From NCBI GenBank assembly GCA_965220645.1, contig OZ244836.1:660075-724074 (forward strand): 64,000 nt of DNA, given 5' to 3'. The notes under the pieces are model-generated. The model did not search any database. It saw only the letters and a program-made list of their open reading frames with translations, and was not told the origin of the DNA. Of this stretch, positions 22,889 to 48,354 are shown one piece after another. Position 1 is the first letter of the stretch, and every line of letters begins with the position of its first letter. The position numbers and the translations under genes were made by a program. This DNA is from Candidatus Aldehydirespirator sp. (GTDB taxonomy: Bacteria; Actinomycetota; Acidimicrobiia; Acidimicrobiales; Aldehydirespiratoraceae).

Positions 22889-23944
22889 TCAAGCGGCTTG
22901 GTCAGCGACGATGTCGGGGCAGCTGGGCTGTTGTTCGTCGGCGAGCATCACCCGCCAGACGCGGCCGGCGATCTTGCGTTTGAGGCAGCGCATGGCCTCT
23001 TTGTGGGTCTTGCCCTGGTCGATCTTGCGGTCGTAGTAGCGGCGGCCCTCGCTGTGGGCCTTGCGGATCTGGGTCACCGCGACGAGGTGCAGCGCCGAGT
23101 TGAGCTTGCGGTCGCCACTGCGGGAGAGCCGGTGGCGGATCCGTTCACCGCTGGAGGCCTCCACCGGCGCGGTGCCGGCGTAGCTGGCGAACGCGTCCGC
23201 GGTGGGGAACCTTGAGGCCCGCCCGCAGCGTCCGGTGAGGCGCGCCGCCAATACCGGGCCGATGCCGTCGATGTCAACCAGCCGGGTGGGGCGAGCCTCG
23301 AGCGCCTCGATCATGCGCTGGGTGATCGACGCCAGCGCCGCGTCCAGAGCTCGGATCTCGCGCACCAGGTCCCACGCCAGCTGCTTGCGTGTGCGCTGCA
23401 CTGGTGTGGCGGGGCGGATCTTGCGCAGCAGCGCCGCGGCACCGGCGGCTTTGAGCGCGGTGGGCGCCCCGCCCGCCACCAGGTCACGCAGCAGGGCGTG
23501 GAGCTGGTTGACCGAGCGCACACGCTGGGACGCCAGACTCCCACGACGCTCCTCCAACAAGGCGAACACCACGGTGTGGTCATCAACAACGACCGGGGCG
23601 GCGTCGCCCTGACAGGCAGCGACGCTGGCTGCAGCCGACGCGTCGATCACGTCGTTCTTGCGCCGTCCGCCCCTAGACAGCTCACGCACCCGCGCCGTCG
23701 CGACCGTCGACGCGTCCAGCACCGTCTCGCCGTGTGCGACGAGCCACTGTGCCAGATGACAACCCATGCCCCGGGCGTTCTCCACCGCCCAGCGGCGCTC
23801 GTCGAACTGCTCAGCCCAGCCCAGCAGCCTCCGATAGCCCGCCGCGCTGGCAGCGACCCGCAGCGACGCCACCGCTGTGTTCGTGGCCACATCCACCGCC
23901 GTGGCAGTGTGAGACGACTTGTGGGGATCCACTCCAATGATCAT
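22889..23944 (-). CDS. IS110 recombinase, type 1
   Basis: IGVDPHK, WAVEN, KNDVIDA, GIGPVLA, GTAPVEASSG. Confidence 0.95.
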   Translation of the reverse strand: MIIGVDPHKSSHTATAVDVATNTAVASLRVAASAAGYRRLLGWAEQFDERRWAVENARGMGCHLAQWLVAHGETVLDASTVATARVRELSRGGRRKNDVIDASAAASVAACQGDAAPVVVDDHTVVFALLEERRGSLASQRVRSVNQLHALLRDLVAGGAPTALKAAGAAALLRKIRPATPVQRTRKQLAWDLVREIRALDAALASITQRMIEALEARPTRLVDIDGIGPVLAARLTGRCGRASRFPTADAFASYAGTAPVEASSGERIRHRLSRSGDRKLNSALHLVAVTQIRKAHSEGRRYYDRKIDQGKTHKEAMRCLKRKIAGRVWRVMLADEQQPSCPDIVADQAA

Positions 23945-23959
23945 GACTCAGTCCTTGAC

Positions 23960-24136
23960 TCGACAGCAGTTGCACACCACAGCCGGCACGCCGACTTCGA
24001 GATCCAAGAATGGATCACGCCTCTGTTGAGCCAGACCGCAGCCGGCCGTCAACCGGGTCGCACACCCTGGCAGAGCCAGCCGAAGCGGCAGGCGGTTCAC
24101 GAGCCAACCCGGCCAACGACCCACCGGACGCTCCGG
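23960..24136 (-). ncRNA. Putative bridge RNA of IS110 type 1
   Basis: Contains a 9-nt complement of the flanking target (24063-24071 vs 22867-22875) and an 8-nt match to its own tail end (24019-24026 vs 22875-22882); boundaries approximate. Confidence 0.7.
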
Positions 24137-24252
24137 GGCAGCGTCCCGCCATATGGTGGGACTTGAGGTAGCTGGGAGGGTCCACCACTAGGGGGTCATC
24201 GGCGTGATCCTCGGTGAGAAGACATCACTCACTCATCGAGGAGGACACACCG

Positions 24253-25027: not shown

Positions 25028-25127
25028 TCTCCGTTAACCGGCCTTGGGTGGTCGGGCTTCGGCTGGTGGCGTGAGGGTCCGCGCGTGGTGCTGGTCGGGG
25101 GTGGAGACTTCGGTCGAGGAGGCCCGG

Positions 25128-26177
25128 ATGGGGTTGCGGGTAGCGGTCGTCGATGGCGGTCACCGTCTGGTCGGTGGTGGCGATGTGGTCGGTCTGGCGA
25201 ATCGGTGGCTGGCGCATCTGGAGGTCCGTGAGTTCTCACCGCGAACGGTTCGGGCGTATGCGTTCGATGCGTTGAACTTGGCCCGTTTCCTTGAGGATCG
25301 GTCGATTGCGGTGGCTGATGTGGTGGCGATGGACCTGTTCGATTGGCTGGCGTGGCAGTCCGCTGCGGTGCCGACGGCTGGCCGTCGGGTGGTCCGATTG
25401 CAGGAGCGTCGTGGCGCGGCGGCGTCGACGATGAACCGTCGCGTGGCGGCGGTGCGTGGCTTGTTCGACTACTTGGTGATGAGCGGCGAGGTCGAGGTGA
25501 ATCCGGTGCCGTCGCCTCGACGCTCGGGCGGGCTGCGCCAGGTTCGCCGCGGGATGCTCGGCCATGTTGGTGGCCGTCGTTCGGGTTCCGATGGTCGGCT
25601 GGTGCGTCAGGCACGTCCGTTGCCTGAGAGTTTGCCGGCCGGCGAGGTCGCGGTGTTCTTGGCCGATCTGGACCGTCATCGTGACCGGGCGGTGGTGTTG
25701 TTGATGTTGCTCGGCGGCCTGCGCGCGTCGGAGGTGCGGTCGCTGCGTTTGGCCGACATCGATGTCGGGATGCGACAGGTGACTGTCACCGGCAAGGGCG
25801 GCAAGCAGCGAACGGTGCCTGTGGATCGGGCGTTCTTCACCGAGTTGGGTTCATATCTGCGTGTGGAGCGACCGGCTGGGCTGACTACACCGGAGTGTTT
25901 CGTGGTGTTGCGCGGTCCGACGACCGGGCAGGCGATGAGCGAGGCCGGGTTGCGGCGGGTGTTCCGGACGCATCGGGCTCGTTCCGGTGCCCAGCGGGTG
26001 CGACCGCATCGGCTGCGGCACACGTTCGGGACCGAGCTCGCCGCGGCGGGGATGGATCTGTTGGTGCTGCGGGACCTGATGGGGCACGCGCACGCCGAAA
26101 CGACCGCCGCGTATGTGCACCCGAACGCGGAGACGATCGCTGCGGAGTGGTCGCGGGTTCGGGCGGTGCAGCGATGA
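25128..26177 (+). CDS. Small tyrosine recombinase, element C1
   Basis: GAGGAGG SD; GLRASE, GKGG, HRLRH, MGH, TAAY. Confidence 0.9.
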   Translation: MGLRVAVVDGGHRLVGGGDVVGLANRWLAHLEVREFSPRTVRAYAFDALNLARFLEDRSIAVADVVAMDLFDWLAWQSAAVPTAGRRVVRLQERRGAAASTMNRRVAAVRGLFDYLVMSGEVEVNPVPSPRRSGGLRQVRRGMLGHVGGRRSGSDGRLVRQARPLPESLPAGEVAVFLADLDRHRDRAVVLLMLLGGLRASEVRSLRLADIDVGMRQVTVTGKGGKQRTVPVDRAFFTELGSYLRVERPAGLTTPECFVVLRGPTTGQAMSEAGLRRVFRTHRARSGAQRVRPHRLRHTFGTELAAAGMDLLVLRDLMGHAHAETTAAYVHPNAETIAAEWSRVRAVQR

Positions 26178-28135
26178 TCGCTGCGGTCGCCTCTGGGGAA
26201 ACGGCCGTCGATGTGTTGGCCGACTACGAAGCCCACGTCGCGGCGTTGTCGATCACGCTTGGTGCTCGGCGGGATCGTGTGTATCGGGCTCGCCGGTTCA
26301 TGAGCGTGCATCGGGACCTGGGCGTGTGGATGCAACGCCCGACGGTTGCCCGGTTGGCGGATCTGCGCCGGGTGAAGGCATGGCCGTTCGCGACGTGGCT
26401 GTTCGTGTCGGGCCGACGGCGACCCGATCTCGAGCTGCTGCTCACCAAACCGGCCGGCTGCGATCTGCCGTCGGTGTGGGCCGCCGCTCACCCCGACGAC
26501 GTCGCCCGAGCCGAACAGATGGCGTTGGGGCTCGGATGGAGCAAGAACTGGACCCGCCAGGTTGTGATCCTGGCAGCGTCGATGATCTGTGTGTGGGCCA
26601 ACAAGGCCATCGACGATCTCGACGACGCCGACTTCGACGCGATCGTTGCCGAGCTTGATGACAGTCCCGCCGTGACGGCATCTGCGCGGACCCGGTTGAA
26701 GACGCGCCTGTTCTCGCTGCATCACGTCTGCTTTCAGCTCGGCATCTGCCACGTCGCACCCCGCCTCGGCCAACCACCGGCACGGAACGCTGCGCAACAC
26801 GCAGCCACGATCCCGCAACCCGCGATCGCCCGCGAGGTGGTCCGCTATGCCGAGACGATCTCCACGGTGCTGCGACCGTCAACGGTGCAGATGCGGGTCA
26901 AGTCGATCCGGGTCCTGTGCGACTGGCTCGCCGACCACCACCCCGACATCGAACGGCTCGATCAACTCGACCGCAACGTCCACATCGAACCGTTCATCGC
27001 CTGGGCCCGAACCCGGCCATGTCGCGGCAACAACGGTCGCGGGCGGACCGTGTCGCCAACCCAGTTCCACCACGATGTGGTCGACCTGCGCGTCTTCTTT
27101 GAGGACATCACCGAATGGGGATGGGCCAGCCAACCCAACCGCCGGCTGTTCTTCCTCGCCGATCTGCCCCGCCTGCCCGAACCCCTCCCACGCGCGCTCC
27201 CACGCGACGTCGACCGCGATCTGATGGCCGCCGTCGAACACCTCGATGACGACTTCGCCAGAACCGGGATCATCTTGCTGCGAGCCACCGGGATGCGCAT
27301 CGGTGAACTGTTGGATCTCGAACTCGACTGCCTCGTCACCTTCGGCACCCACGGCACCTGGCTCAAAGTCCCAATCGGCAAGCTCGGCACCGAACGAATG
27401 GTGCCGCTGGACCCCGGACCACTCGCCGCGCTCGACGCCTGGATCAAGAACCGCGACCGGCAACGACCCCTTCCGCATCCACGCGACGGACGCCTCTGCG
27501 ACTTCGTGTTCACCGAACGCGGGCGTCGCCCCGGAGCGCATCGGATCAGACGCGGACTCCACGACGCCGTCAACATCGCCGGGCTCACCGGCCCCGGCAA
27601 GCAACCACTGCGAGTCGTGCCCCACCAGCTCCGCCACACCTTCGGCACCGAACTCGTCAACGCCGGCATGTCACTGCCCGCGCTGATGGCGCTGCTCGGC
27701 CACGTCACCCCCGAAATGACGTTGCGCTACGCGCAGCTCGCCTCGCCCACCGTGCGAGCCGCCTATGACACCGCGATGGACAAGGTCCGCGCCCGGCGCC
27801 CCATCTTCGTCGTCCCAGCCGGCCGAACCACCGCAATCCCCGCCAAAGTCGACTGGCTCCACACCGAAATGATCAAGACCCGCGTCGCACACGGCTTCTG
27901 TTCACGCGACCCACTCGCTGGCGCCTGCACCTACTCGAACATCTGCGAACAATGCGACAACTTCGTCCCCGACCCCGCCCGAGAACCCGTCATCGCCGAA
28001 CAACTCGACGACATCCGCACCCTTCGCGACGACGCCCACCAACGCGGCTGGACCGACGAGGTCGCCCGCCACGACCGAGTCATCGAACACCTCGAACAGC
28101 ACCTCACAACCACCCGCCACCGAACCATCAGTTGA
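26174..28135 (+). CDS. Large tyrosine recombinase with Cys4 tail, element C1
   Basis: ATGA overlap; GMRIGE, IGK, HQLRH, LGH, TLRY; GFCSRDPLAGACTYSNICEQC. Confidence 0.9.
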   Translation: MIAAVASGETAVDVLADYEAHVAALSITLGARRDRVYRARRFMSVHRDLGVWMQRPTVARLADLRRVKAWPFATWLFVSGRRRPDLELLLTKPAGCDLPSVWAAAHPDDVARAEQMALGLGWSKNWTRQVVILAASMICVWANKAIDDLDDADFDAIVAELDDSPAVTASARTRLKTRLFSLHHVCFQLGICHVAPRLGQPPARNAAQHAATIPQPAIAREVVRYAETISTVLRPSTVQMRVKSIRVLCDWLADHHPDIERLDQLDRNVHIEPFIAWARTRPCRGNNGRGRTVSPTQFHHDVVDLRVFFEDITEWGWASQPNRRLFFLADLPRLPEPLPRALPRDVDRDLMAAVEHLDDDFARTGIILLRATGMRIGELLDLELDCLVTFGTHGTWLKVPIGKLGTERMVPLDPGPLAALDAWIKNRDRQRPLPHPRDGRLCDFVFTERGRRPGAHRIRRGLHDAVNIAGLTGPGKQPLRVVPHQLRHTFGTELVNAGMSLPALMALLGHVTPEMTLRYAQLASPTVRAAYDTAMDKVRARRPIFVVPAGRTTAIPAKVDWLHTEMIKTRVAHGFCSRDPLAGACTYSNICEQCDNFVPDPAREPVIAEQLDDIRTLRDDAHQRGWTDEVARHDRVIEHLEQHLTTTRHRTIS

Positions 28136-28158
28136 CCCCGACCCCCAAGGCCGGTTAA

Positions 28159-28646
28159 TCCGCAACATTCTCGCTTTGGTGCCCCGCAGCCACCAGCACA
28201 TGGCCGCCGCGGTGTTCCGGACCGTCTTCGCGCAGCCCGACGCCGAAGCTGTGCGCGACACCTGGGACGAAGTCGCCGCCCAGCTCGGCGCCCGATTCCC
28301 CAAAGTCGCAGCGCTGATGGCCGACGCCAAGCCCGAGGTGCTGGCCTTCGCGGCGTTCCCTCGGGCGCACTGGCAGAAGATCTGGTCCACCAACCCGCTG
28401 GAGAGAATCAACAAGGAGATCAAACGACGATCACGCGTCATCGGGATCTTCCCCAACGAAGCATCCGCCATCCGCCTCGTCGGAGCCATTCTCGCTGACC
28501 TCCACGACGAATGGCAGGCCACCGAGCGCCGCTACCTCTCAGAGCACTCCATGGCCACCCTCAGCCCCGAGCGCGATACCATCGCCACAGCCGAGCTCAC
28601 AGCCGGCCACCATCACCGAGGCTCAACTCAAGAGCCCACCACTTGA
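28159..28646 (+). pseudogene. IS256-1 transposase C-terminal part
   Basis: RNILALVP...WQKIWSTNPLERINKEIKRR..GIFPN. Confidence 0.92.
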
Positions 28647-28659
28647 TTCAGTGCATGAT

Positions 28660-28815
28660 TGGCGGGTGTTGCCGGCTCGCTCTACCACTTCGTGCCGTCA
28701 TGGCCAGGTCCCGTCTTGCGGCCGGCGACACGATGCGGACCGGCCGGTGTGGCTTGATAGGAGCGTGGCATCGCCCCCACTGAGTTGTGCCCGCCGACCG
28801 GTCCTTGCACCGTTC
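28660..28815 (+). ncRNA. Putative bridge RNA of IS110-2a
   Basis: Four guide-like segments in the order target-left, target-right, donor-left, donor-right; boundaries approximate. Confidence 0.75.
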
Positions 28816-28837
28816 ACCTACGAAAGGCAACGACATC

Positions 28838-29884
28838 ATGATCACATTGGGAATCGACGCGCACAAGCGCACCCACACTGTTGTCGCGGTCGACGAGCTG
28901 GGCCGCCAGCTCGGGTGCCGCACGACCTGCGGCACCACCACCGCTGACCATCGGGCGCTGATCGGCTGGGCAGAGGGGTTCGGAGCGGAGCGCACCTGGG
29001 CAGTCGAGGACTGTCGGCAGCTGTCGCGCCGCCTCGAGGCCGACATGCTCGCAGCAGGCGAGCGCATCGTGCGGGTCCCGCCCAAGCTGATGGCCCATGC
29101 CCGCGACGCGGCCCGCACCTACGGCAAGTCCGACCCCATAGACGCGCTCGCGGTGGCCCGCGCCGCGCAGCGCGAGCCCGATCTTCCCGCCGCGCACCTC
29201 GACGCTGCTTCCCGGGAGATCCGGCTGCTGGTCGATCACCGAGATGACCTCGTGGCCGAGCGCACACGCTGCATAAACCGGCTGCGCTGGCACCTCCATG
29301 AGATCGACCCCGCATTCGATCCTCCAGCGGGCGCGTTGACGACCCGCAAGCACCTCGACGCCGCCCACAAGCGCGTCCAGGGGCTCGACACGGTCGTGGC
29401 GCGCATCGCCGCAGAGATCATCGAGCGAATCCGCAGCCTCAACGCCATCATCGCCAGCCTCGGCGACGAACTCGACGCCCGAACCGCCCACGCCGCGCCG
29501 AACCTGCGCTCAGTGCACGGCGTGGGCCCGCTCACAGCAGCCAAGATCATCGGCGAGACCGCCGGCATCGGCCGGTTCCGCTCCCGGCACGCATACGCCC
29601 GCCACAACGGCACCGCCCCGCTGCCGGTCTGGTCCAGCAACACCCACCGGCACCGACTCAGCCGAGCCGGCAACCGCCAACTCAACGCCGCCATACACCG
29701 CATCGCGCTCACCCAGGCCAGCAACCACCCCCCAGCACGCCGCTTGCTGGACCGGCGAACCACCGGCGGCAACACCACCAAAGAAGCCATGAGAGTCCTC
29801 AAACGCCGACTCTCCGACGTCGTCTACCGAGCCCTCAACGCCGACGCCGCCCACCTCCAGGACCCCCAACTCCTAGCTGCTTGA
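28838..29884 (+). CDS. IS110 recombinase, type 2a
   Basis: LGIDAHK, WAVED, KSDPIDA, GVGPLTA, GTAPLPVWSS. Confidence 0.95.
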   Translation: MITLGIDAHKRTHTVVAVDELGRQLGCRTTCGTTTADHRALIGWAEGFGAERTWAVEDCRQLSRRLEADMLAAGERIVRVPPKLMAHARDAARTYGKSDPIDALAVARAAQREPDLPAAHLDAASREIRLLVDHRDDLVAERTRCINRLRWHLHEIDPAFDPPAGALTTRKHLDAAHKRVQGLDTVVARIAAEIIERIRSLNAIIASLGDELDARTAHAAPNLRSVHGVGPLTAAKIIGETAGIGRFRSRHAYARHNGTAPLPVWSSNTHRHRLSRAGNRQLNAAIHRIALTQASNHPPARRLLDRRTTGGNTTKEAMRVLKRRLSDVVYRALNADAAHLQDPQLLAA

Positions 29885-29921
29885 CACATAGGAGAGATGG
29901 GACGCCCCCCAGACTTGTAAG

Positions 29922-30320
29922 TTGTCTGTTTGGGATGATCGGGTGCGGACTGAGGTAGTGGGGTGCTGGCCATGGACCGACGGGGCAGCGCGAGCATTCG
30001 ACCGAGGGCGTGCACGCCGCGGGTCGCTGCTGCCGCTGGCCGCCTACGAGATGCCCATTCTCGAGTCGCTCATCGAGTTGGGCGGGTCCGCTCCGTCGTC
30101 GGTTGTCATCGATCGCGTGGGCGCGAAGCTCGAAGCACAGTTGACCGACATCGACCGTGACAAGACGCCCGGCAGGGGCGTCATCCGCTGGAGGTATAGA
30201 ACTCAGTTCGCTCGGCGGGCGCTCGTTGAGAAGGGGCAGATGCTACGAGACTCTCCACACGGCGTCTGGGAGATCTCGCAGGCAGGCACAGACCGGGTGA
30301 AGGCAGAAGCGACGACATGA
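29922..30320 (+). CDS. Stand-alone Mrr N-terminal-like winged-helix protein
   Basis: PILESLIELGGSA...RWRYRTQFARRALVEKG...HGVWEISQAG; start uncertain. Confidence 0.7.
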   Translation: MSVWDDRVRTEVVGCWPWTDGAARAFDRGRARRGSLLPLAAYEMPILESLIELGGSAPSSVVIDRVGAKLEAQLTDIDRDKTPGRGVIRWRYRTQFARRALVEKGQMLRDSPHGVWEISQAGTDRVKAEATT

Positions 30321-41567: not shown

Positions 41568-41592
41568 GGCAGCGTCCCATCTCTCCTATGTG

Positions 41593-42639
41593 TCAAGCAG
41601 CTAGGAGTTGGGGGTCCTGGAGGTGGGCGGCGTCGGCGTTGAGGGCTCGGTAGACGACGTCGGAGAGTCGGCGTTTGAGGACTCTCATGGCTTCTTTGGT
41701 GGTGTTGCCGCCGGTGGTTCGCCGGTCCAGCAAGCGGCGTGCTGGGGGGTGGTTGCTGGCCTGGGTGAGCGCGATGCGGTGTATGGCGGCGTTGAGTTGG
41801 CGGTTGCCGGCTCGGCTGAGTCGGTGCCGGTGGGTGTTGGCAGACCAGACCGGCAGCGGGGCGGTGCCGTTGTGGCGGGCGTATGCGTGCCGGGAGCGGA
41901 ACCGGCCGATGCCGGCGGTCTCGCCGATGATCTTGGCTGCTGTGAGCGGGCCCACGCCGTGCACTGAGCGCAGGTTCGGCGCGGCGTGGGCGGTTCGGGC
42001 GTCGAGTTCGTCGCCGAGGCTGGCGATGATGGCGTTGAGGCTGCGGATTCGCTCGATGATCTCTGCGGCGATGCGCGCCACGACTGTGTCGAGGCCCTGG
42101 ACGCGCTTGTGGGCGGCGTCGAGGTGCTTGCGGGTCGTCAACGCGCCCGCTGGAGGGTCGAATGCGGGGTCGATGTCATGGAGGTGCCAGCGCAGCCGGT
42201 TTATGCAGCGTGTGCGCTCGGCCACGAGGTCATCTCGGTGATCGACCAGCAGCCGGATCTCCCGGGAAGCAGCGTCGAGGTGCGCGGCGGGAAGATCGGG
42301 CTCGCGCTGCGCGGCGCGGGCCACCGCGAGCGCGTCTATGGGGTCTGACTTGCCATAGGTGCGGGCCGCGTCGCGGGCGTGGGCCATCAGCTTGGGCGGG
42401 ACCCGCACGATGCGCTCGCCTGCTGCGAGCATGTCGGCCTCGAGGCGGCGCGACAGCTGCCGGCAGTCCTCGACTGCCCAGGTGCGCTCCGCTCCGAACC
42501 CCTGTGCCCAGCCGATCAGCGCCCGATGATCGGCGGTGGTGGTGCCACCGGTGGTGCGGCAGCCGAGCTGGCGGCCCAGCTCGTCGACCGCGACAACAGT
42601 GTGGGTGCGCTTGTGCGCGTCGATTCCCAATGTGATCAT
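41593..42639 (-). CDS. IS110 recombinase, type 2b
   Basis: Differs from copy a by only a few residues. Confidence 0.95.
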   Translation of the reverse strand: MITLGIDAHKRTHTVVAVDELGRQLGCRTTGGTTTADHRALIGWAQGFGAERTWAVEDCRQLSRRLEADMLAAGERIVRVPPKLMAHARDAARTYGKSDPIDALAVARAAQREPDLPAAHLDAASREIRLLVDHRDDLVAERTRCINRLRWHLHDIDPAFDPPAGALTTRKHLDAAHKRVQGLDTVVARIAAEIIERIRSLNAIIASLGDELDARTAHAAPNLRSVHGVGPLTAAKIIGETAGIGRFRSRHAYARHNGTAPLPVWSANTHRHRLSRAGNRQLNAAIHRIALTQASNHPPARRLLDRRTTGGNTTKEAMRVLKRRLSDVVYRALNADAAHLQDPQLLAA

Positions 42640-42661
42640 GATGTCGTTGCCTTTCGTAGGT

Positions 42662-42817
42662 GAACGGTGCAAGGACCGGTCGGCGGGCACAGCTCAGTGG
42701 GGGCGATGCCACGCTCCTATCAAGCCACACCGGCCGGTCCGCATCGTGTCGCCGGCCGCAAGACGGGACCTGGCCATGACGGCATCGAGTGGTAGAGCGA
42801 GCCGGCAACACCCGCCA
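42662..42817 (-). ncRNA. Putative bridge RNA of IS110-2b
   Basis: Same as copy a except in the left target guide and one base next to the right donor guide. Confidence 0.75.
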
Positions 42818-42934
42818 ATCATGCACTGAACCGAGTGGTGGAAATTGAGGTAGGCGTGGGGGTCCACCTGTAGGGGGCCATCGGCGTGATCCTCGGTGAG
42901 AAGTAGTCACCGACTCATCGAGGAGGACACACCG

Positions 42935-43715
42935 ATGACCCTGTCTGATACTGCCACAGCGCAGCTGTGGGAGACCTTCCGCGCCGGAGGTGGCGCGGAG
43001 TTGATCCGCGACGCGGTGGAGCTGGTGCTCCAAGAGCTGATCGAGGCCGAGGCGGCCGAGGCGATCGGCGCGGGCCGCTATGAGCGCAGCGAGCACCGCC
43101 GCACCGAGCGCAACGGGCACCGCGGCCGCTTGTTGGCCACCCAGGCGGGGGATGTGGAGCTGAAGATCCCCAAGCTGAGAAAGGGCAGCTTCTTTCCGTC
43201 GATGCTCGAGCCTCGCCGGCGCATCGACAAGGCGCTGTACGCGGTGATCATGGAGGCCTATGTGGCTGGGGTGTCAACGCGCTCAGTCGATGACCTGGTG
43301 GCCGCTTTGGGCGCGGAGTCCGGCATCTCGAAGTCGGAGGTGTCGCGTATTTGCGCCGGGCTCGACGAGACGGTGGAGGCGTTCCGTTCCCGCCGCCTGG
43401 ACCACATCGAGTTCCCCTACGTCTATCTGGACGCGACCTACCTCAATGTGCGCAACAGCGTCGCCCAGCCGGCGTCGATGGCCACCGTCGTGGCCACCGG
43501 GATCACCGCTGACGGCAACCGGGAGGTGCTGGGCTGCGACGTCGGCGACAGCGAGAGCGAGGGGTTCTGGCAGCAGTTCCTGTCCTCGTTGCGCGACAGG
43601 GGCCTCACCGGCGTGCGGCTGGTCATCTCCGACGCGCACCGCGGGCTCGGCGCAGCCGCCGACCGCTGGTTCCAAGGAGCCGCCCGACAGCGCTGTCGGG
43701 TGCATTTCATCCGCA
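42935..43715 (+). pseudogene. IS256-2 transposase N-terminal part
   Basis: IPKLRKGSFFPS, YLDATY, QRCRVHFIR. Confidence 0.92.
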
Positions 43716-43738
43716 TTAACCGGCCTTGGGGGTCGGGG

Positions 43739-45700
43739 TCAACTGATGGTTCGGTGGCGGGTGGTTGTGAGGTGCTGTTCGAGGTGTTCGATGACTCGGT
43801 CGTGGCGGGCGACCTCGTCGGTCCAGCCGCGTTGGTGGGCGTCGTCGCGAAGGGTGCGGATGTCGTCGAGTTGTTCGGCGATGACGGGTTCTCGGGCGGG
43901 GTCGGGGACGAAGTTGTCGCATTGTTCGCAGATGTTCGAGTAGGTGCAGGCGCCAGCGAGTGGGTCGCGTGAACAGAAGCCGTGTGCGACGCGGGTCTTG
44001 ATCATTTCGGTGTGGAGCCAGTCGACTTTGGCGGGGATTGCGGTGGTTCGGCCGGCTGGGACGACGAAGATGGGGCGCCGGGCGCGGACCTTGTCCATCG
44101 CGGTGTCATAGGCGGCTCGCACGGTGGGCGAGGCGAGCTGCGCGTAGCGCAACGTCATTTCGGGGGTGACGTGGCCGAGCAGCGCCATCAGCGCGGGCAG
44201 TGACATGCCGGCGTTGACGAGTTCGGTGCCGAAGGTGTGGCGGAGCTGGTGGGGCACGACTCGCAGTGGTTGCTTGCCGGGGCCGGTGAGCCCGGCGATG
44301 TTGACGGCGTCGTGGAGTCCGCGTCTGATCCGATGCGCTCCGGGGCGACGCCCGCGTTCGGTGAACACGAAGTCGCAGAGGCGTCCGTCGCGTGGATGCG
44401 GAAGGGGTCGTTGCCGGTCGCGGTTCTTGATCCAGGCGTCGAGCGCGGCGAGTGGTCCGGGGTCCAGCGGCACCATTCGTTCGGTGCCGAGCTTGCCGAT
44501 TGGGACTTTGAGCCAGGTGCCGTGGGTGCCGAAGGTGACGAGGCAGTCGAGTTCGAGATCCAACAGTTCACCGATGCGCATCCCGGTGGCTCGCAGCAAG
44601 ATGATCCCGGTTCTGGCGAAGTCGTCATCGAGGTGTTCGACGGCGGCCATCAGATCGCGGTCGACGTCGCGTGGGAGCGCGCGTGGGAGGGGTTCGGGCA
44701 GGCGGGGCAGATCGGCGAGGAAGAACAGCCGGCGGTTGGGTTGGCTGGCCCATCCCCATTCGGTGATGTCCTCAAAGAAGACGCGCAGGTCGACCACATC
44801 GTGGTGGAACTGGGTTGGCGACACGGTCCGCCCGCGACCGTTGTTGCCGCGACATGGCCGGGTTCGGGCCCAGGCGATGAACGGTTCGATGTGGACGTTG
44901 CGGTCGAGTTGATCGAGCCGTTCGATGTCGGGGTGGTGGTCGGCGAGCCAGTCGCACAGGACCCGGATCGACTTGACCCGCATCTGCACCGTTGACGGTC
45001 GCAGCACCGTGGAGATCGTCTCGGCATAGCGGACCACCTCGCGGGCGATCGCGGGTTGCGGGATCGTGGCTGCGTGTTGCGCAGCGTTCCGTGCCGGTGG
45101 TTGGCCGAGGCGGGGTGCGACGTGGCAGATGCCGAGCTGAAAGCAGACGTGATGCAGCGAGAACAGGCGCGTCTTCAACCGGGTCCGCGCAGATGCCGTC
45201 ACGGCGGGACTGTCATCAAGCTCGGCAACGATCGCGTCGAAGTCGGCGTCGTCGAGATCGTCGATGGCCTTGTTGGCCCACACACAGATCATCGACGCTG
45301 CCAGGATCACAACCTGGCGGGTCCAGTTCTTGCTCCATCCGAGCCCCAACGCCATCTGTTCGGCTCGGGCGACGTCGTCGGGGTGAGCGGCGGCCCACAC
45401 CGACGGCAGATCGCAGCCGGCCGGTTTGGTGAGCAGCAGCTCGAGATCGGGTCGCCGTCGGCCCGACACGAACAGCCACGTCGCGAACGGCCATGCCTTC
45501 ACCCGGCGCAGATCCGCCAACCGGGCAACCGTCGGGCGTTGCATCCACACGCCCAGGTCCCGATGCACGCTCATGAACCGGCGAGCCCGATACACACGAT
45601 CCCGCCGAGCACCAAGCGTGATCGACAACGCCGCGACGTGGGCTTCGTAGTCGGCCAACACATCGACGGCCGTTTCCCCAGAGGCGACCGCAGCGATCAT
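43739..45700 (-). CDS. Large tyrosine recombinase, element C2
   Basis: Same translation as C1. Confidence 0.9.
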   Translation of the reverse strand: MIAAVASGETAVDVLADYEAHVAALSITLGARRDRVYRARRFMSVHRDLGVWMQRPTVARLADLRRVKAWPFATWLFVSGRRRPDLELLLTKPAGCDLPSVWAAAHPDDVARAEQMALGLGWSKNWTRQVVILAASMICVWANKAIDDLDDADFDAIVAELDDSPAVTASARTRLKTRLFSLHHVCFQLGICHVAPRLGQPPARNAAQHAATIPQPAIAREVVRYAETISTVLRPSTVQMRVKSIRVLCDWLADHHPDIERLDQLDRNVHIEPFIAWARTRPCRGNNGRGRTVSPTQFHHDVVDLRVFFEDITEWGWASQPNRRLFFLADLPRLPEPLPRALPRDVDRDLMAAVEHLDDDFARTGIILLRATGMRIGELLDLELDCLVTFGTHGTWLKVPIGKLGTERMVPLDPGPLAALDAWIKNRDRQRPLPHPRDGRLCDFVFTERGRRPGAHRIRRGLHDAVNIAGLTGPGKQPLRVVPHQLRHTFGTELVNAGMSLPALMALLGHVTPEMTLRYAQLASPTVRAAYDTAMDKVRARRPIFVVPAGRTTAIPAKVDWLHTEMIKTRVAHGFCSRDPLAGACTYSNICEQCDNFVPDPAREPVIAEQLDDIRTLRDDAHQRGWTDEVARHDRVIEHLEQHLTTTRHRTIS

Positions 45701-46746
45701 CGCTGCACCGCCCGAACCCGCGACCACTCCGCAGCGATCGTCTCCGCGTTCGGGTGCACATACGCGGCGGTCGTTTCGGCGTGCGCGTGCCCCATCAGGT
45801 CCCGCAGCACCAACAGATCCATCCCCGCCGCGGCGAGCTCGGTCCCGAACGTGTGCCGCAGCCGATGCGGTCGCACCCGCTGGGCACCGGAACGAGCCCG
45901 ATGCGTCCGGAACACCCGCCGCAACCCGGCCTCGCTCATCGCCTGCCCGGTCGTCGGACCGCGCAACACCACGAAACACTCCGGTGTAGTCAGCCCAGCC
46001 GGTCGCTCCACACGCAGATATGAACCCAACTCGGTGAAGAACGCCCGATCCACAGGCACCGTTCGCTGCTTGCCGCCCTTGCCGGTGACAGTCACCTGTC
46101 GCATCCCGACATCGATGTCGGCCAAACGCAGCGACCGCACCTCCGACGCGCGCAGGCCGCCGAGCAACATCAACAACACCACCGCCCGGTCACGATGACG
46201 GTCCAGATCGGCCAAGAACACCGCGACCTCGCCGGCCGGCAAACTCTCAGGCAACGGACGTGCCTGACGCACCAGCCGACCATCGGAACCCGAACGACGG
46301 CCACCAACATGGCCGAGCATCCCGCGGCGAACCTGGCGCAGCCCGCCCGAGCGTCGAGGCGACGGCACCGGATTCACCTCGACCTCGCCGCTCATCACCA
46401 AGTAGTCGAACAAGCCACGCACCGCCGCCACGCGACGGTTCATCGTCGACGCCGCCGCGCCACGACGCTCCTGCAATCGGACCACCCGACGGCCAGCCGT
46501 CGGCACCGCAGCGGACTGCCACGCCAGCCAATCGAACAGGTCCATCGCCACCACATCAGCCACCGCAATCGACCGATCCTCAAGGAAACGGGCCAAGTTC
46601 AACGCATCGAACGCATACGCCCGAACCGTTCGCGGTGAGAACTCACGGACCTCCAGATGCGCCAGCCACCGATTCGCCAGACCGACCACATCGCCACCAC
46701 CGACCAGACGGTGACCGCCATCGACGACCGCTACCCGCAACCCCAT
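45697..46746 (-). CDS. Small tyrosine recombinase, element C2
   Basis: Same translation as C1. Confidence 0.9.
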   Translation of the reverse strand: MGLRVAVVDGGHRLVGGGDVVGLANRWLAHLEVREFSPRTVRAYAFDALNLARFLEDRSIAVADVVAMDLFDWLAWQSAAVPTAGRRVVRLQERRGAAASTMNRRVAAVRGLFDYLVMSGEVEVNPVPSPRRSGGLRQVRRGMLGHVGGRRSGSDGRLVRQARPLPESLPAGEVAVFLADLDRHRDRAVVLLMLLGGLRASEVRSLRLADIDVGMRQVTVTGKGGKQRTVPVDRAFFTELGSYLRVERPAGLTTPECFVVLRGPTTGQAMSEAGLRRVFRTHRARSGAQRVRPHRLRHTFGTELAAAGMDLLVLRDLMGHAHAETTAAYVHPNAETIAAEWSRVRAVQR

Positions 46747-46846
46747 CCGGGCCTCCTCGACCGAAGTCTCCACCCCCGACCAGCACCACGCGCGGACCCT
46801 CACGCCACCAGCCGAAGCCCGACCACCCAAGGCCGGTTAACGGAGA

Positions 46847-47296
46847 ACCTGCTGGCGGTGGTGCCCCGCAGCCACCAGCACATGGCCGCCGCGGTGTTCA
46901 GAACCATCTTCGCCCAGCCCGACGCCGCCGCGGTGACCGAAGCCTGGGACCAGGTCGCAGACCAGCTCGCCGCCAGTTTCGCGAAGATCGGCCCCCTCAT
47001 GGCCGGCGCCAAAGCCGAGGTCCTCGCGTTCGCCGCGTTCCCCCGAACGCACTGGCAGAAGATCTGGTCCACCAACCCCCTCGAACGCATCAACAAAGAG
47101 ATCAAACGCAGATCACGCGTCGTGGGCATCTTCCCCAACGAGGCCTCAGCCATACGCCTCGTCGGCGCCATCTTGGCCGACCTCCACGACGAATGGGCAG
47201 GCCACCGACCGCCGCTACCTCTCAGAGGACTCCATGAGCCTGCTCTACCCCCAGCGCGATAACCTCACCACAGCCGAGCTCACAGCCGGCAACTAA
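46847..47296 (+). pseudogene. IS256-2 transposase C-terminal part (with +1 frameshift near 47195)
   Basis: IWSTNPLERINKEIKRR; GAATGGGCAG versus GAATGGCAG in copy 1. Confidence 0.88.
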
Positions 47297-47297
47297 C

Positions 47298-48354
47298 TGT
47301 TCTGGACATAGAGGTTGGTAGCTCCGCGATGGGGTGAGCCTCCGGTGGCAGTGTGGGAGTTGTGACAACCGCACGAATACAACCGGAGGCTCTATGTCGC
47401 ACGCTAACGCACGTTTCACCCCTGCTGGGCGCCTGTTGATCGTCCAGCGGATCGAGGCGGGCATGCCCCAGGCCCATGTGGCCCGCCAGATGGGCCTGTC
47501 TCGCGGCACGGTCGCGAAGTGGTGGCACCGCTGGCTCGCCGAGGGCGAGGCCGGTCTGGTGGACCGGTCCTCGAGGCCCTGGCGCTGTCCGCGGCGCACC
47601 GACGCCAGGCTCGAGGAGCGGGTGTGCCGGCTGCGGCGCAGCACCCGGCGCGGTCCGGTGTATCTGGGGGCGCGCACCGGGCTGCCGGCGTCGACGGTGT
47701 GGCGGATCCTCAAGCGCAACGGGCTGAACCGCCTGTCATGGATCGACCGGCCCACCGGGCGCGTGATCCGCCGCTACGAGCGCTCCGCTGCTGGCGAGCT
47801 GGTGCACCTCGACATCAAGAAGGTCGGCAAGATCCCACCTGGGGGCGGCTGGCGCGTCCATGGACGCGGCTCAGACCGCGCCAAGCGAGCCAATCGCTCC
47901 AAGCGGCGCCCGGTGGGCTACACCTTCTTGCACGTCGCCATCGACGACTACTCCCGAGTCGCCTACGTCGAGGCCCATGACAACGAGACCGCCGCCACCC
48001 TCGTCGGGTTCTGGCGGCGCGCCCAGGGGTGGTTCTGGTCCAACGACATGGCCGTCGACGAGGTCCTCACCGACAACGGCCCCAACTTCGTCTCCGACGC
48101 GTTCGCCGAGCTGCTGGCTGAGCGGCGCATCCTGCACCGCCGGACCCGCCCGTACCGGCCCCAAACCAACGGCAAAGCCGAGCGCTTCAACCGCACCCTC
48201 GCCGACGAGTTCCTCTACAACTACAAGTTCAGATCCGAGAACGAACGCCGCATCCGCCTCAAACGCTGGATCCACGACTACAACTGTCACCGACACCACA
48301 CCGCCGTCGGCGGCCCGCCCGCATCACGAGCACACAACCTCACGCGAACTGACA
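47298..48354 (+). mobile_element. IS481-family element
   Basis: TGT...ACA ends with a GAGGTTG subterminal match; flanks ACTAAC / CCTAGG. Confidence 0.8.

What the first reader, a model, noticed from the sequence alone, without database searches (positions are those of the whole stretch)
28630..29910. IS110 with a readable bridge RNA programmed against the IS256 terminal inverted repeat
Both copies of IS110 type 2 split an IS256 IR (right IR of IS256-1, left IR of IS256-2) at CACCACTY-GA-TGGGACGC. The upstream non-coding end contains, in bridge-RNA order: ACCACTT (28684-28690) = target left; GTCCCGTC (28708-28715) complementary to GATGGGAC with one G:T; ATAGGAGcG (28757-28765) matching its own tail ATAGGAGAG; and CACTGAGT (28778-28785) complementary to its own head ATTCAGTG with one G:T. 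Circularisation would join TTGACA (29881) to CATGAT (28654) 18 bp apart. The uninvaded left IR of IS256-1 reads ACCATAT and mismatches the guide. Bridge RNAs are known; an IS256-IR target is the new aspect.
Basis: partly seen in the sequence, partly recalled or inferred. Interest (0 to 1): 0.85.

Follow-up and report, generated by a model that had tools for sequence, protein, structure and literature searches.

The report
Bridge-RNA IS110 aimed at IS256 ends
This is a small jumping gene of the IS110 family whose own guide RNA is matched to the end repeat of another jumping gene (IS256 family), a well-supported natural example of a known RNA-guided mechanism with a target that I did not find described.

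Summary
All motifs sit at the stated coordinates. The element (window 28648-29898, +) has a second copy in the window (41579-42829, -) and a third elsewhere in the genome. Each splits a terminal inverted repeat of an IS256-family (Mutator-type) element, 11-12 bp from its tip.

The bridge-RNA reading is supported by relatives, not only by this copy:
- In 51 related left ends, two stems with compensatory changes leave all four guide segments in internal loops.
- Guides match their own flanks far better than other loci's flanks (0 of 5000 permutations).
- The donor guide covaries with the element's left end.

The two variants in this genome differ at only 4 of 190 non-coding bases. All four lie in guide segments, and two of them track differences in the flank. 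Metagenome contigs show the uninterrupted IS256 repeat ending exactly at 28647.

Corrections:
- The crossover dinucleotide is more likely AT than GA.
- Copies B and C carry GT at the left junction.
- IS256-end targeting is shared by a clade of relatives in Actinomycetota.
- IS110-family elements that target repeats of other transposons are already known (IS1383, IS4321/IS5075).

Verdict: new member of a known kind. No RNA data exist.

The parts
28606..28647 (+). Inner part of the right terminal repeat of IS256-1. Its last 10 bases (28638-28647, ACCACTTGAT) are the left target half plus the shared dinucleotide A28646-T28647. The stop codon of the IS256 transposase frame (28644-28646) lies inside it.
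   Evidence: (PF00872 C-terminal part at 28176-28643). In one search, contigs of other samples match up to 28647 and then continue with GGGACGC, which is the uninterrupted repeat.
28648..28837 (+). Non-coding left end of the IS110-group element (190 nt). It starts TCAGTG.
   Evidence: the left end is conserved in relatives while the sequence before it is not.
28667..28804 (+). Predicted bridge RNA core (138 nt). The target-binding stem-loop is 28667-28730 and the donor-binding stem-loop is 28737-28804.
   Evidence: 90.5% of cells paired, and 193 cells with a change on both sides against 59.2 in shuffles (0 of 500). maps alignment columns to window coordinates. In one search the same stems appear in the minimum-energy fold; the structure with open loops scores -58.6 against -63.7 kcal/mol.
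28684..28692 (+). Left target guide (ACCACTTCG in copy A; ACCACTCGA in copies B and C). It has the same sense as the left flank.
28708..28716 (+). Right target guide (28708-28713, pairs with T-GGGAC with one G:T) followed by three bases (28714-28716, TCT) complementary to the last three bases of the element's own right end. The latter is a handshake-guide-like segment.
   Evidence: In one search, 13 of 13 loci of the ACCAC target class match 3 of 3, through five different triplets. The rule for IS621 was read in PMC11208158.
28757..28765 (+). Left donor guide (ATAGGAGCG). It has the same sense as the right end ATAGGAGAG at 29888-29896.
   Evidence: both the guide and the right end are conserved across relatives.
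28778..28787 (+). Right donor guide (CACTGAGT plus 2 nt), complementary to the left junction A-T-TCAGTG. Base 28785 is T in copy A and C in copies B and C.
   Evidence: In one search, alignment columns 1-5 pair with columns 194-198 (U-A 36, C-G 13; G-C 46, A-U 5). Also.
28838..29884 (+). Recombinase gene: 348 aa, with a DEDD RuvC-like domain and a Tnp domain. The frame is intact in all three copies.
   Evidence: (PF01548 at 3.1e-25, PF02371 at 1.4e-15), and (IS621 and ISCro4 chains at 2.5e-7 and 1.1e-7).
29885..29898 (+). Short right end (14 nt) including the second copy of AT (29897-29898). The hexamer TTGACA (29881-29886) overlaps the stop codon.
   Evidence: In one search, TTGACA sits at the stop codon in 60 of 66 related loci with a full-length frame.
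28654..28659 (+). CATGAT, a candidate -10 hexamer. It would lie 18 nt after TTGACA only in a circularised element.
   Evidence: Arithmetic. In one search, a (C/T)AnnnT hexamer sits at this place in 42 of 51 left ends. One search found no promoter-like site in the linear form. Function was not tested.
29899..29910 (+). Outer 12 bp of the IS256-1 right repeat. The right target half GGGAC is 29899-29903, and the IS256 tip is at about 29910.
   Evidence: the flanks of A, L006 and the empty-site contigs agree for 12 bases and then diverge.
41579..42829 (-). Copy B of the element, in the left terminal repeat of IS256-2. Its left guide is at 42785-42793 and its recombinase gene at 41593-42639.
24137..24159 (-). 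Uninvaded left terminal repeat of IS256-1. Read on the minus strand, the site is ACCATATG-GC-GGGAC.
   Evidence: In one search, the reconstructed right end and the reverse-complemented left end share 37 aligned identical positions (54 and 56 nt compared).

Best explanation
The element is an IS110-group insertion sequence. It carries a DEDD/serine bridge recombinase gene, a 190-nt left end and a 14-nt right end, and has no terminal inverted repeats.

Its left end encodes a bridge RNA of about 138 nt with two internal loops:
- The first loop holds a left guide identical to ACCACT(T/C).. in the inner half of an IS256-family terminal repeat. It also holds a right guide complementary to (C/T)GGGAC in the outer half.
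- The second loop holds guides for the element's own right end (ATAGGAG..) and left end (..TCAGTG).

The recombinase, programmed by this RNA, joins a circular copy of the element to the IS256 repeat at a crossover dinucleotide (AT in copy A). The crossover lies 11-12 bp from the IS256 tip, so the insertion cuts the tip off the rest of IS256.

SHOWN:
- the anatomy;
- the guide-flank and guide-end matches and their covariation in relatives;
- three insertions in IS256 ends;
- empty sites in other samples.

INFERRED:
- that the RNA is made, probably from a TTGACA-18 nt-CATGAT promoter formed only in the circle;
- that in copy A read-through from the IS256 transposase gene may also contribute;
- that the RNA binds the recombinase;
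- that insertion disables that IS256 end.
For: 1. PROTEIN. PF01548 plus PF02371. The nearest solved chains are the bridge recombinases ISCro4 and IS621.

2. STRUCTURE. On 51 related left ends, the two outer stems and two small hairpins are paired in 90.5% of cells. 193 cells have a change on both sides, against 59.2 in shuffles (0 of 500). When partners are slid by 1-3 columns, pairing falls to 31-50%. The guide segments lie between the stems.

3. TARGET GUIDES.
- The left guide and its own left flank share a mean run of 7.08 nt, and 35 of 51 loci share 7 nt or more. Non-cognate pairs share 3.5 nt; 0 of 5000 permutations reach the observed sum.
- The right guide and its own right junction share 5.72 nt against 3.67 (n = 39); 0 of 5000.

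4. DONOR GUIDES. TCAGT pairs with ACTGA, CCAGT with ACTGG, and TCAAT with ATTGA (13 and 5 double changes). The three bases after the right target guide equal the last three bases of the right end in 13 of 13 loci of this target class, through 5 different triplets.

5. WITHIN THIS GENOME.
- A differs from B/C at 4 of 190 non-coding bases, and all 4 lie in guide segments.
- Guide T28690 goes with flank T28644 in A. In B/C a guide C goes with a flank C.
- Donor-guide T28785 pairs with A28646 in A. In B/C a C pairs with G.
- Relative to the nearest outgroup L006, which has guide ACCACTTCA, both changes in the B/C left guide increase the match to the B/C sites.

6. RECENT, INDEPENDENT INSERTION. 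B and C are identical over 1251 bp, while their host IS256 sequences are only 96.2% alike over 476 bp and have different outer flanks.

7. EMPTY SITES. Contigs in three coded runs match the left flank up to 28647 and continue GGGACGC (1, 2 and 3 contigs in X1, X5 and X6).

8. UNINVADED END. The left end of IS256-1 mismatches the left guides at 3 of 9 (copy A variant) and 5 of 9 (B/C variant) positions.
Against: - No RNA evidence at all. No listed run is on record as RNA, and Rfam has no matching family.
- The single-sequence fold is no more stable than shuffles (z = -0.85).
- No promoter-like site was found in the linear element. The junction promoter is arithmetic plus conservation only.
- The guides do not fit their present sites perfectly.
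  - Copy A's left guide mismatches its flank at the two positions next to the crossover (guide C-G against flank G-A).
  - The B/C left guide mismatches at one position (A against G).
  - The right guide needs a G:T pair.
- The left and right junction dinucleotides of B and C differ (GT and AT). IS621, by contrast, has CT at both ends.
- In a fixed register, many relatives outside this target class are offset by one base. My position numbering is therefore secure only for the ACCAC class.
- The 51 aligned loci are related, so shuffles overstate independence.
Confidence: 0.88

Rival explanations
1. The three IS110 copies were not aimed at IS256 ends. One ancestral IS256 already carrying the IS110 was copied by IS256 transposition or by segmental duplication, so the association is inherited rather than targeted.
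For: B and C both sit in left ends, at the same position and in the same orientation. The region is a mosaic of nested elements.
Against: - B and C are 100% identical, while the IS256 sequence beside them is 96.2% identical and the outer flanks differ.
- A sits in a right end.
- Relatives in other orders of Actinomycetota sit in both left and right ends of IS256-family elements that are only 46-84% identical in protein.
- Empty sites exist.
- An IS256 whose tip is separated by 1.25 kb is unlikely to transpose as a unit (inference).
Confidence: 0.04
2. Target choice is made by the protein alone, or by another factor. The guide-like matches in the left end are relics or serve another role, for example regulation of recombinase translation.
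For: Nothing here shows RNA. The guides mismatch the present sites at one or two positions next to the crossover.
Against: - Cognate guide-flank matching exceeds every permutation.
- Compensatory changes maintain the stems that present the guides.
- The only non-coding differences between the two variants in this genome lie in guide segments.
- In metagenome contigs, the differences listed within 28648-28831 are at 28690-28692 and 28785 only (53 further rows of that table were not shown).
- The mechanism is experimentally established for IS621 (PMC11208160 and PMC11208158, passages read).
Confidence: 0.05
3. The elements are now inactive relics. The bridge RNA was real, but the copies no longer move.
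For: All IS256 hosts here are broken, by a 3135-bp insert or by truncation. Copy A's left guide has two mismatches to its own site.
Against: All three recombinase frames are intact at 348 aa. B and C are identical at two loci 1.97 Mb apart, which points to recent movement of that variant.
Confidence: 0.15

Closest known systems
IS621 (IS110 group) bridge recombinase and bridge RNA
   Same: - The same two Pfam domains, and sequence similarity to the solved chain 8wt6.
- A long left end and a short right end.
- An RNA with target-binding and donor-binding internal loops, in the same order and sense of guides.
- Bases after the right target guide that match the donor end (handshake-like).
- A -35 hexamer in the right end that meets a -10-like hexamer in the left end only in a circle.
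The comparison is with passages read in PMC11208158 and PMC11208160.
   Different: - Distant in sequence (E about 1e-7).
- No Rfam hit.
- The crossover dinucleotide is AT/GT rather than CT, and in most relatives of this target class it is unequal at the two junctions.
- The target is a transposon end. That IS621's natural targets are REP elements is my recollection, prompted by a reference title.
IS4321/IS5075 (targets: terminal repeats of Tn21-family transposons) and IS1383 (targets: repeats of IS1384)
   Same: These are IS110-family elements that insert site-specifically and in one orientation into the terminal inverted repeats of another transposable element. I saw only the titles, in the reference lists of PMC11208160 and PMC11187229. 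I did not read the papers themselves.
   Different: - IS4321 and IS5075 are IS1111-group elements according to the reference title; for IS1383 the group is recalled. That these elements have subterminal repeats and carry the guide RNA in the right end is partly recalled.
- Here the RNA is in the left end and the right end is only 14 nt.
- The host element here belongs to the IS256 family in Actinomycetota. In four full-text searches I found no paper reporting that pairing.
Sister lineage inserted just upstream of start codons (resembles IS900/IS116-type behaviour, recalled)
   Same: The same left-end RNA scaffold, the same right end (TTGACA..ATAGGAG) and a related recombinase (62-75% identity). 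On the recombinase tree it is sister to the clade holding this element.
   Different: The right guide reads ..CATG.. and the junctions read ATAGGAGCAA-n-nCATG. The element therefore sits between a gene's start codon and its upstream region, not in a transposon end. The link to IS900/IS116 is from memory and was not tested.

Membership tests
IS110 family, IS110 group (bridge recombinase elements) | Recombinase with an N-terminal DEDD RuvC-like domain (PF01548) and a C-terminal Tnp domain (PF02371) | tested here: met
   PF01548 at residues 4-157 (3.1e-25) and PF02371 at residues 222-301 (1.4e-15); hits to the ISCro4 and IS621 chains.
IS110 family, IS110 group (bridge recombinase elements) | Catalytic D-E-D-D residues and the catalytic serine are present | tested here: inconclusive
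   In the weak N-terminal alignment to ISCro4, GID, an E in 'VED' and 'SDPIDA' align with GID, 'ME' and 'TDAVDA'. 'SVHGVG' aligns with 'SIPGIG'. Which residues are catalytic is recalled and does not come from any call.
IS110 family, IS110 group (bridge recombinase elements) | No terminal inverted repeats; the non-coding left end is much longer than the right end | tested here: met
   The left end is 190 nt (28648-28837) and the right end is 14 nt (29885-29898). The criterion was read in PMC11208160, section 12.
IS110 family, IS110 group (bridge recombinase elements) | The left end folds into an RNA with two internal loops flanked by conserved stems | tested here: met
IS110 family, IS110 group (bridge recombinase elements) | The first loop matches the target flanks (left guide in sense, right guide in antisense); the second loop matches the element's own ends | tested here: met
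   For this copy: 7 of 9 for the left guide, 6 of 6 for the right guide with one G:T, 8 of 9 for the left donor guide, and 8 of 8 for the right donor guide with one G:T.
IS110 family, IS110 group (bridge recombinase elements) | The same core dinucleotide at both junctions (CT in IS621) | tested here: inconclusive
   Copy A has AT at both junctions. B and C have GT at the left and AT at the right. In 10 of 12 relatives of this target class with both junctions readable, the two dinucleotides differ.
IS110 family, IS110 group (bridge recombinase elements) | A circular intermediate whose right-end/left-end junction forms a promoter | not testable with these tools
   The sequence is compatible: TTGACA, 18 nt, CATGAT. 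TTGACA is present in 60 of 66 relatives and a -10-like hexamer in 42 of 51. No circle junction appeared among the laid contigs, which proves nothing.
IS110 family, IS110 group (bridge recombinase elements) | The RNA is expressed and bound by the recombinase | not testable with these tools
   No RNA run is listed.
IS1111 group (guide RNA in the right end, subterminal inverted repeats) | A long right end encoding the RNA, and subterminal inverted repeats of 7-17 bp | tested here: not met
   The right end is 14 nt, and the RNA scaffold is upstream of the gene. The criterion was read in PMC11208160, section 12.

The most novel reading that the evidence does not exclude
A lineage of bridge-RNA IS110 elements spread through Actinomycetota may be specialised as parasites of IS256-family transposons. 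They insert 11-12 bp from the IS256 tip and re-tune their guides to local variants of the repeat.

Their natural junctions also carry an asymmetric footprint: a target-type dinucleotide at the left junction and a donor-type dinucleotide at the right junction, in 10 of 12 loci. That is the pattern expected if only the top strand is exchanged and the rest is copied.

If so, this would be population-level evidence for the copy-out / top-strand-insertion model proposed in two recent preprints (10.1101/2025.10.25.684509 and 10.64898/2026.08.31.748434; abstracts read).
Probability: 0.35. Interest if true: 0.65.

Novelty: new member of a known kind. Interest (0 to 1): 0.45.

Why it matters
It gives a clean natural case of bridge-RNA programming that can be read directly from sequence.
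- One genome holds two guide variants of the same element, each sitting in the repeat variant that it fits better.
- One repeat that neither variant fits remains untouched.
- It adds IS256-family ends to the short list of transposon ends used as safe, multi-copy landing sites by IS110-family elements.
- It shows the habit is shared by relatives from several orders of Actinomycetota. An insertion 11-12 bp from the tip should disable that IS256 end.

For engineering, the family offers a GC-rich bridge recombinase scaffold with a non-CT crossover dinucleotide. Its natural examples tolerate mismatches next to the crossover.

The unequal junction dinucleotides may bear on the open question of single-strand versus double-strand exchange.

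Tried and rejected
- Rfam: nothing at gathering scores for the whole window. On 28600-28900 only chance-level hits appeared, with E 0.13 or worse.
- Single-sequence folding: z = -0.85 against shuffles, so it is uninformative in this GC-rich sequence.
- Promoter and terminator scan of 28500-30000: none found.
- Sequencing runs: no RNA holder listed. Among the laid contigs no joint spans the whole element and no circle junction was seen. One joint that skips 745 nt inside the gene, from a single low-depth contig, was ignored.
- A loose pattern search for further IS256-type sites in the genome gave mostly chance hits and only re-found the uninvaded end. BLAST and a PF00872 search replaced it. The genome holds only four loci of this family, seen as six matched pieces.
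- Fixed-register scoring of guide against flank was still significant, but it was spoiled by one-base offsets in many loci outside the ACCAC class. A register-free measure replaced it.
- The per-position reading of the crossover dinucleotide is reliable only for the ACCAC class.
- In one search the right-end anchor was misplaced for the nine ACAGAGGAG-type loci (rows reading AGC). I draw no conclusion from those rows.
- I could not locate the left boundary or the target of the second IS110-group element at 22889-23944.
- I did not build a covariance model and did not predict a protein structure, because neither would have changed the verdict.
- Supplementary files of the papers were not consulted. 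The ISfinder-wide target tables of PMC11187229 and PMC11208160 may already list elements with IS256-end targets.
- The ISfinder database itself was not available.
Full report
WHAT IS THERE

The interval holds one complete IS110-group insertion sequence. Its 348-aa frame (28838-29884, +) carries PF01548 and PF02371. Its only solved relatives are the bridge recombinases ISCro4 and IS621. Upstream lie 190 non-coding bases (28648-28837) and downstream only 14 (29885-29898).

There are three copies in the genome:
- Copy A is the one above.
- Copy B lies at 41579-42829 on the minus strand.
- Copy C lies 1.97 Mb away on the same contig.

B and C are identical, and A differs from them at 22 of 1251 positions.

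THE HOST ELEMENTS

Each copy interrupts an end of an IS256-family (Mutator-type, PF00872) element. A is in the right end of IS256-1. B is in the left end of IS256-2. C is in the left end of a truncated third copy.

I compared the flanks of A, B, C, relative L006, the intact left end of IS256-1 and contigs from other samples. The sequence beyond the insertion point stays common for 11-12 bases (GGGACGCCCCCC or GGGACGCTGCC) and then diverges. The insertion point is therefore 11-12 bp from the IS256 tip. The reconstructed right end and the reverse-complemented left end of IS256-1 share 37 aligned identical positions over 54 and 56 nt.

Contigs from three coded runs match the left flank up to 28647 and then continue GGGACGC (1, 2 and 3 contigs in X1, X5 and X6). 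These are uninterrupted repeats. They fix the inserted segment as 28648-29898, including one copy of AT.

The genome has only four loci of this IS256 family:
- Three ends are invaded.
- One (IS256-1, left) is intact.
- One (IS256-2, right) is replaced by other sequence from about 47294.
- One belongs to a short fragment.

IS THE LEFT END A BRIDGE RNA?

A scan of one genome per species returned 80 related loci from Actinomycetota, 48-93% identical in protein. I aligned 51 distinct left ends, that is copies A and B plus 49 of the 80 related loci. I dropped loci that lacked a left end, had too little upstream sequence, had a truncated or divergent left end (L007, L033, L061, L066, L079, L081, L085, L018), or duplicated another row.

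A structure of two long outer stems and two small hairpins is paired in 90.5% of cells:
- 21 of 35 pairs show a change on both sides.
- 193 cells with a change on both sides were observed, against 59.2 in shuffles (0 of 500 reach it).
- Pairing drops to 31-50% when partners are slid by 1-3 columns.

In copy A the stems are 28667-28680 with 28718-28730, and 28737-28753 with 28789-28804. The same stems appear in the minimum-energy fold. That fold differs only by adding weak pairs between the two halves of each loop (-63.7 against -58.6 kcal/mol). Rfam has no matching family.

DO THE LOOPS READ THE DNA?

Left target guide. The segment after the first stem shares with its own left flank a longest exact run averaging 7.08 nt, and 35 of 51 loci share 7 nt or more. 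Against other loci's flanks the mean is 3.5 nt, and against its own shuffled flank 3.44 nt. None of 5000 permutations reaches the observed sum.

Right target guide. The reverse complement of the segment before the closing stem shares 5.72 nt with its own right junction, against 3.67 nt for other loci (39 loci; 0 of 5000).

Donor guides. RNAalifold on its own paired the first five bases of the element with the second loop, with double changes in 13 and 5 sequences: TCAGT with ACTGA, CCAGT with ACTGG, TCAAT with ATTGA. This is the donor-guide relation.

Handshake-like bases. The three bases after the right target guide equal the last three bases of the right end in 13 of 13 loci of this target class, through five different triplets. 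This parallels the handshake guides described for IS621 (PMC11208158, passages read).

The layout matches the IS621 rule, read in section 8 of that paper. The left guide has the same sense as positions 1-9 of the top strand. The right guide is antisense to the crossover dinucleotide plus the right half.

READING THIS COPY

I number the flank so that A28646-T28647 are positions 8-9.
- The left guide 28684-28692 (ACCACTTCG) matches the flank at 7 of 9 positions and mismatches at positions 7 and 8.
- 28708-28713 pairs with T-GGGAC, using one G:T pair.
- 28714-28716 pairs with AGA, the end of the right end.
- 28757-28765 matches the right end at 8 of 9 positions.
- 28778-28785 pairs with AT-TCAGTG, using one G:T pair.

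Relatives favour AT, because the conserved left end begins at TCAGTG and the base before it varies.

TWO VARIANTS IN ONE GENOME

In the 190 non-coding bases, A and B/C differ only at 28690-28692 (TCG against CGA) and at 28785 (T against C). All four positions lie in guide segments.
- The first change tracks the flank: T with T in copy A, C with C in copies B and C.
- The last change tracks the base before the left end: a guide T pairs with A in copy A, and a guide C pairs with G in copies B and C.
- Against the outgroup L006 (93% protein identity, guide ACCACTTCA, also in the right end of an IS256-family element), both left-guide changes in B/C raise the match to the B/C sites. The match goes from 6 of 9 to 8 of 9.
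- The single change in A lowers the match to its present site.
- Copy A's guide does fit, at 8 of 9 positions, the end of the IS256 fragment at G000:C1:2225150-2225560 (compared by hand).

Metagenome contigs show the same polymorphic positions, plus a third variant (CCA) in run X3. Among the differences listed for 28648-28831, only 28690-28692 and 28785 appear. Three more lie at 28832-28835, and 53 rows of that table were not shown.

The intact left end of IS256-1 (ACCATATG-GC-GGGAC) fits the right guide. It mismatches the left guides at 3 of 9 positions (copy A variant) and 5 of 9 positions (B/C variant).

INDEPENDENT INSERTION OR INHERITANCE?

B and C are identical over 1251 bp. The IS256 sequence beside them is only 96.2% identical over 476 bp, and the outer flanks differ. 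The IS110 therefore entered two diverged IS256 copies. It was not copied along with them.

HOW WIDE IS THE HABIT?

Of the 16 aligned loci whose left guide holds ACCAC, 13 have a Mutator-type transposase immediately on the left-flank side. These occur in both right-end and left-end arrangements. The exceptions are L047, L060 and L068.

On a recombinase tree of 43 rows (8 of the 51 aligned rows, those with frames shorter than 320 aa, were left out):
- Nine of these loci, including A and B, form one clade with support 100/99.
- The other ACCAC-class rows branch more deeply.
- A clade of 16 of the 17 loci that sit just upstream of start codons groups with the nine, within a fork with support 98/93 whose internal order is not resolved.
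- A third group from Nocardia, Micromonospora and others has guides of the ACCGTT type. In four of its nine rows (L021, L041, L048, L058) it lies next to a distant Mutator-type transposase of 27-32% identity.

Whether IS256-end targeting is ancestral was not tested with a rooted analysis.

PROMOTER

TTGACA (29881-29886) overlaps the stop codon and is present in 60 of 66 relatives with a full-length frame. A (C/T)AnnnT hexamer lies at the matching place in 42 of 51 left ends. In a circle with one AT copy the spacer is 18 nt. No promoter-like site is found in the linear form.

This agrees with what is reported for IS621 (PMC11208158, passage read), but it is an inference here. In copy A the element lies downstream of, and in the same direction as, the IS256 transposase frame. 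That frame's stop codon (28644-28646) is inside the target, so read-through transcription is possible (inference).

WHAT IS KNOWN

Bridge RNAs and their generality in the family are published (PMC11208160; section 12 passages read). Site-specific insertion of IS110-family elements into the terminal repeats of other transposons is also published. The examples are IS4321/IS5075 in Tn21-family repeats and IS1383 in IS1384 repeats; I saw only the titles, in reference lists.

Four full-text searches gave no paper that pairs an IS110-family element with IS256-family ends. PMC11187229 does not contain 'IS256' in its main text. Supplements and ISfinder could not be consulted.

VERDICT

The finding is a new member of a known kind, and a good teaching case, not a new mechanism.

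The most interesting loose thread concerns the junction dinucleotides. In 10 of 12 loci of this target class with both junctions readable, the left and right dinucleotides differ. The base that the right target guide should read pairs with the left-junction base in 11 of 12 loci and with the right-junction base in 7 of 12. This is the pattern expected from top-strand-only exchange, as argued in two preprints whose abstracts I read. I have not excluded repair bias or alignment artefacts.

Noticed in passing
window 25028-28162 and 43712-46846: A 3135-bp segment encoding two tyrosine recombinases (PF00589; frames of 377 and 746 aa) interrupts the transposase gene of both IS256-1 and IS256-2 at the same position, but in opposite orientations. 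The two copies differ by at most one base, while the host IS256 copies are only 81-87% alike. About 19 bp at one boundary belong to both the direct and the inverted repeat. It may be a site-specific or invertible element aimed at the IS256 transposase gene.
   Followed up: partly
window 22889-24136 (minus strand): A second, different IS110-group element (351-aa frame at 22889-23944) abuts the outer tip of the IS256-1 left end. Its upstream region has a similar scaffold (..GGCTC-guide-TGCC.. and ..GGCTCAACAGAGGCGT..), and its right end reads TTGACAACACACAGAGGC. I found no match between its presumed left guide and the present flank, and I could not place its left boundary.
   Followed up: partly
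junctions of A, B, C and loci L006-L047 of the ACCAC class: The dinucleotide at the left junction differs from that at the right junction in 10 of 12 loci. The left one behaves like the target's and the right one like the element's own. This is compatible with the top-strand-only insertion proposed in preprints 10.1101/2025.10.25.684509 and 10.64898/2026.08.31.748434.
   Followed up: partly
loci L010, L014, L016, L020, L022-L024, L026-L031, L037, L038, L043, L056, L078: A related lineage with the same RNA scaffold sits directly upstream of start codons (right junction ..TTGACATAGGAGCAA-n-nCATG..). The element's end therefore supplies a -35-like hexamer and an AGGAG in front of the host gene.
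   Followed up: no
G000:C1:2225150-2225560 (minus strand): A short C-terminal fragment of another IS256-family copy keeps a right end reading ACCCCTTC-GC-GTGAC. This fits copy A's left guide at 8 of 9 positions, better than copy A's present site does (7 of 9). The end is not invaded.
   Followed up: partly
loci L008, L013, L017, L064 (about 20 nt before the aligned left end): These relatives carry a second TCAGTGTCAT.. start about 20 nt upstream of the aligned left-end start. The guide-matching flank lies before the first one, so the left end seems to have a short internal duplication.
   Followed up: no
window 47294-47700: The right end of IS256-2 is replaced from about 47294 by unrelated sequence. 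A new frame starts at about 47396 and may belong to another insertion sequence.
   Followed up: no
loci L021, L041, L042, L048, L058, L062: Elements of the Nocardia/Micromonospora-type group (guides of the ACCGTT type, left end CCAGTG) also lie next to distant Mutator-type transposase genes of 27-32% identity. Targeting of IS256-family ends may therefore be older than the clade studied here.
   Followed up: no
coded runs X1-X20: Parts of the element occur in sponge, marine and viral metagenome runs from 11 studies. The B/C guide variant is the one seen in the X1 and X5 contigs.
   Followed up: no
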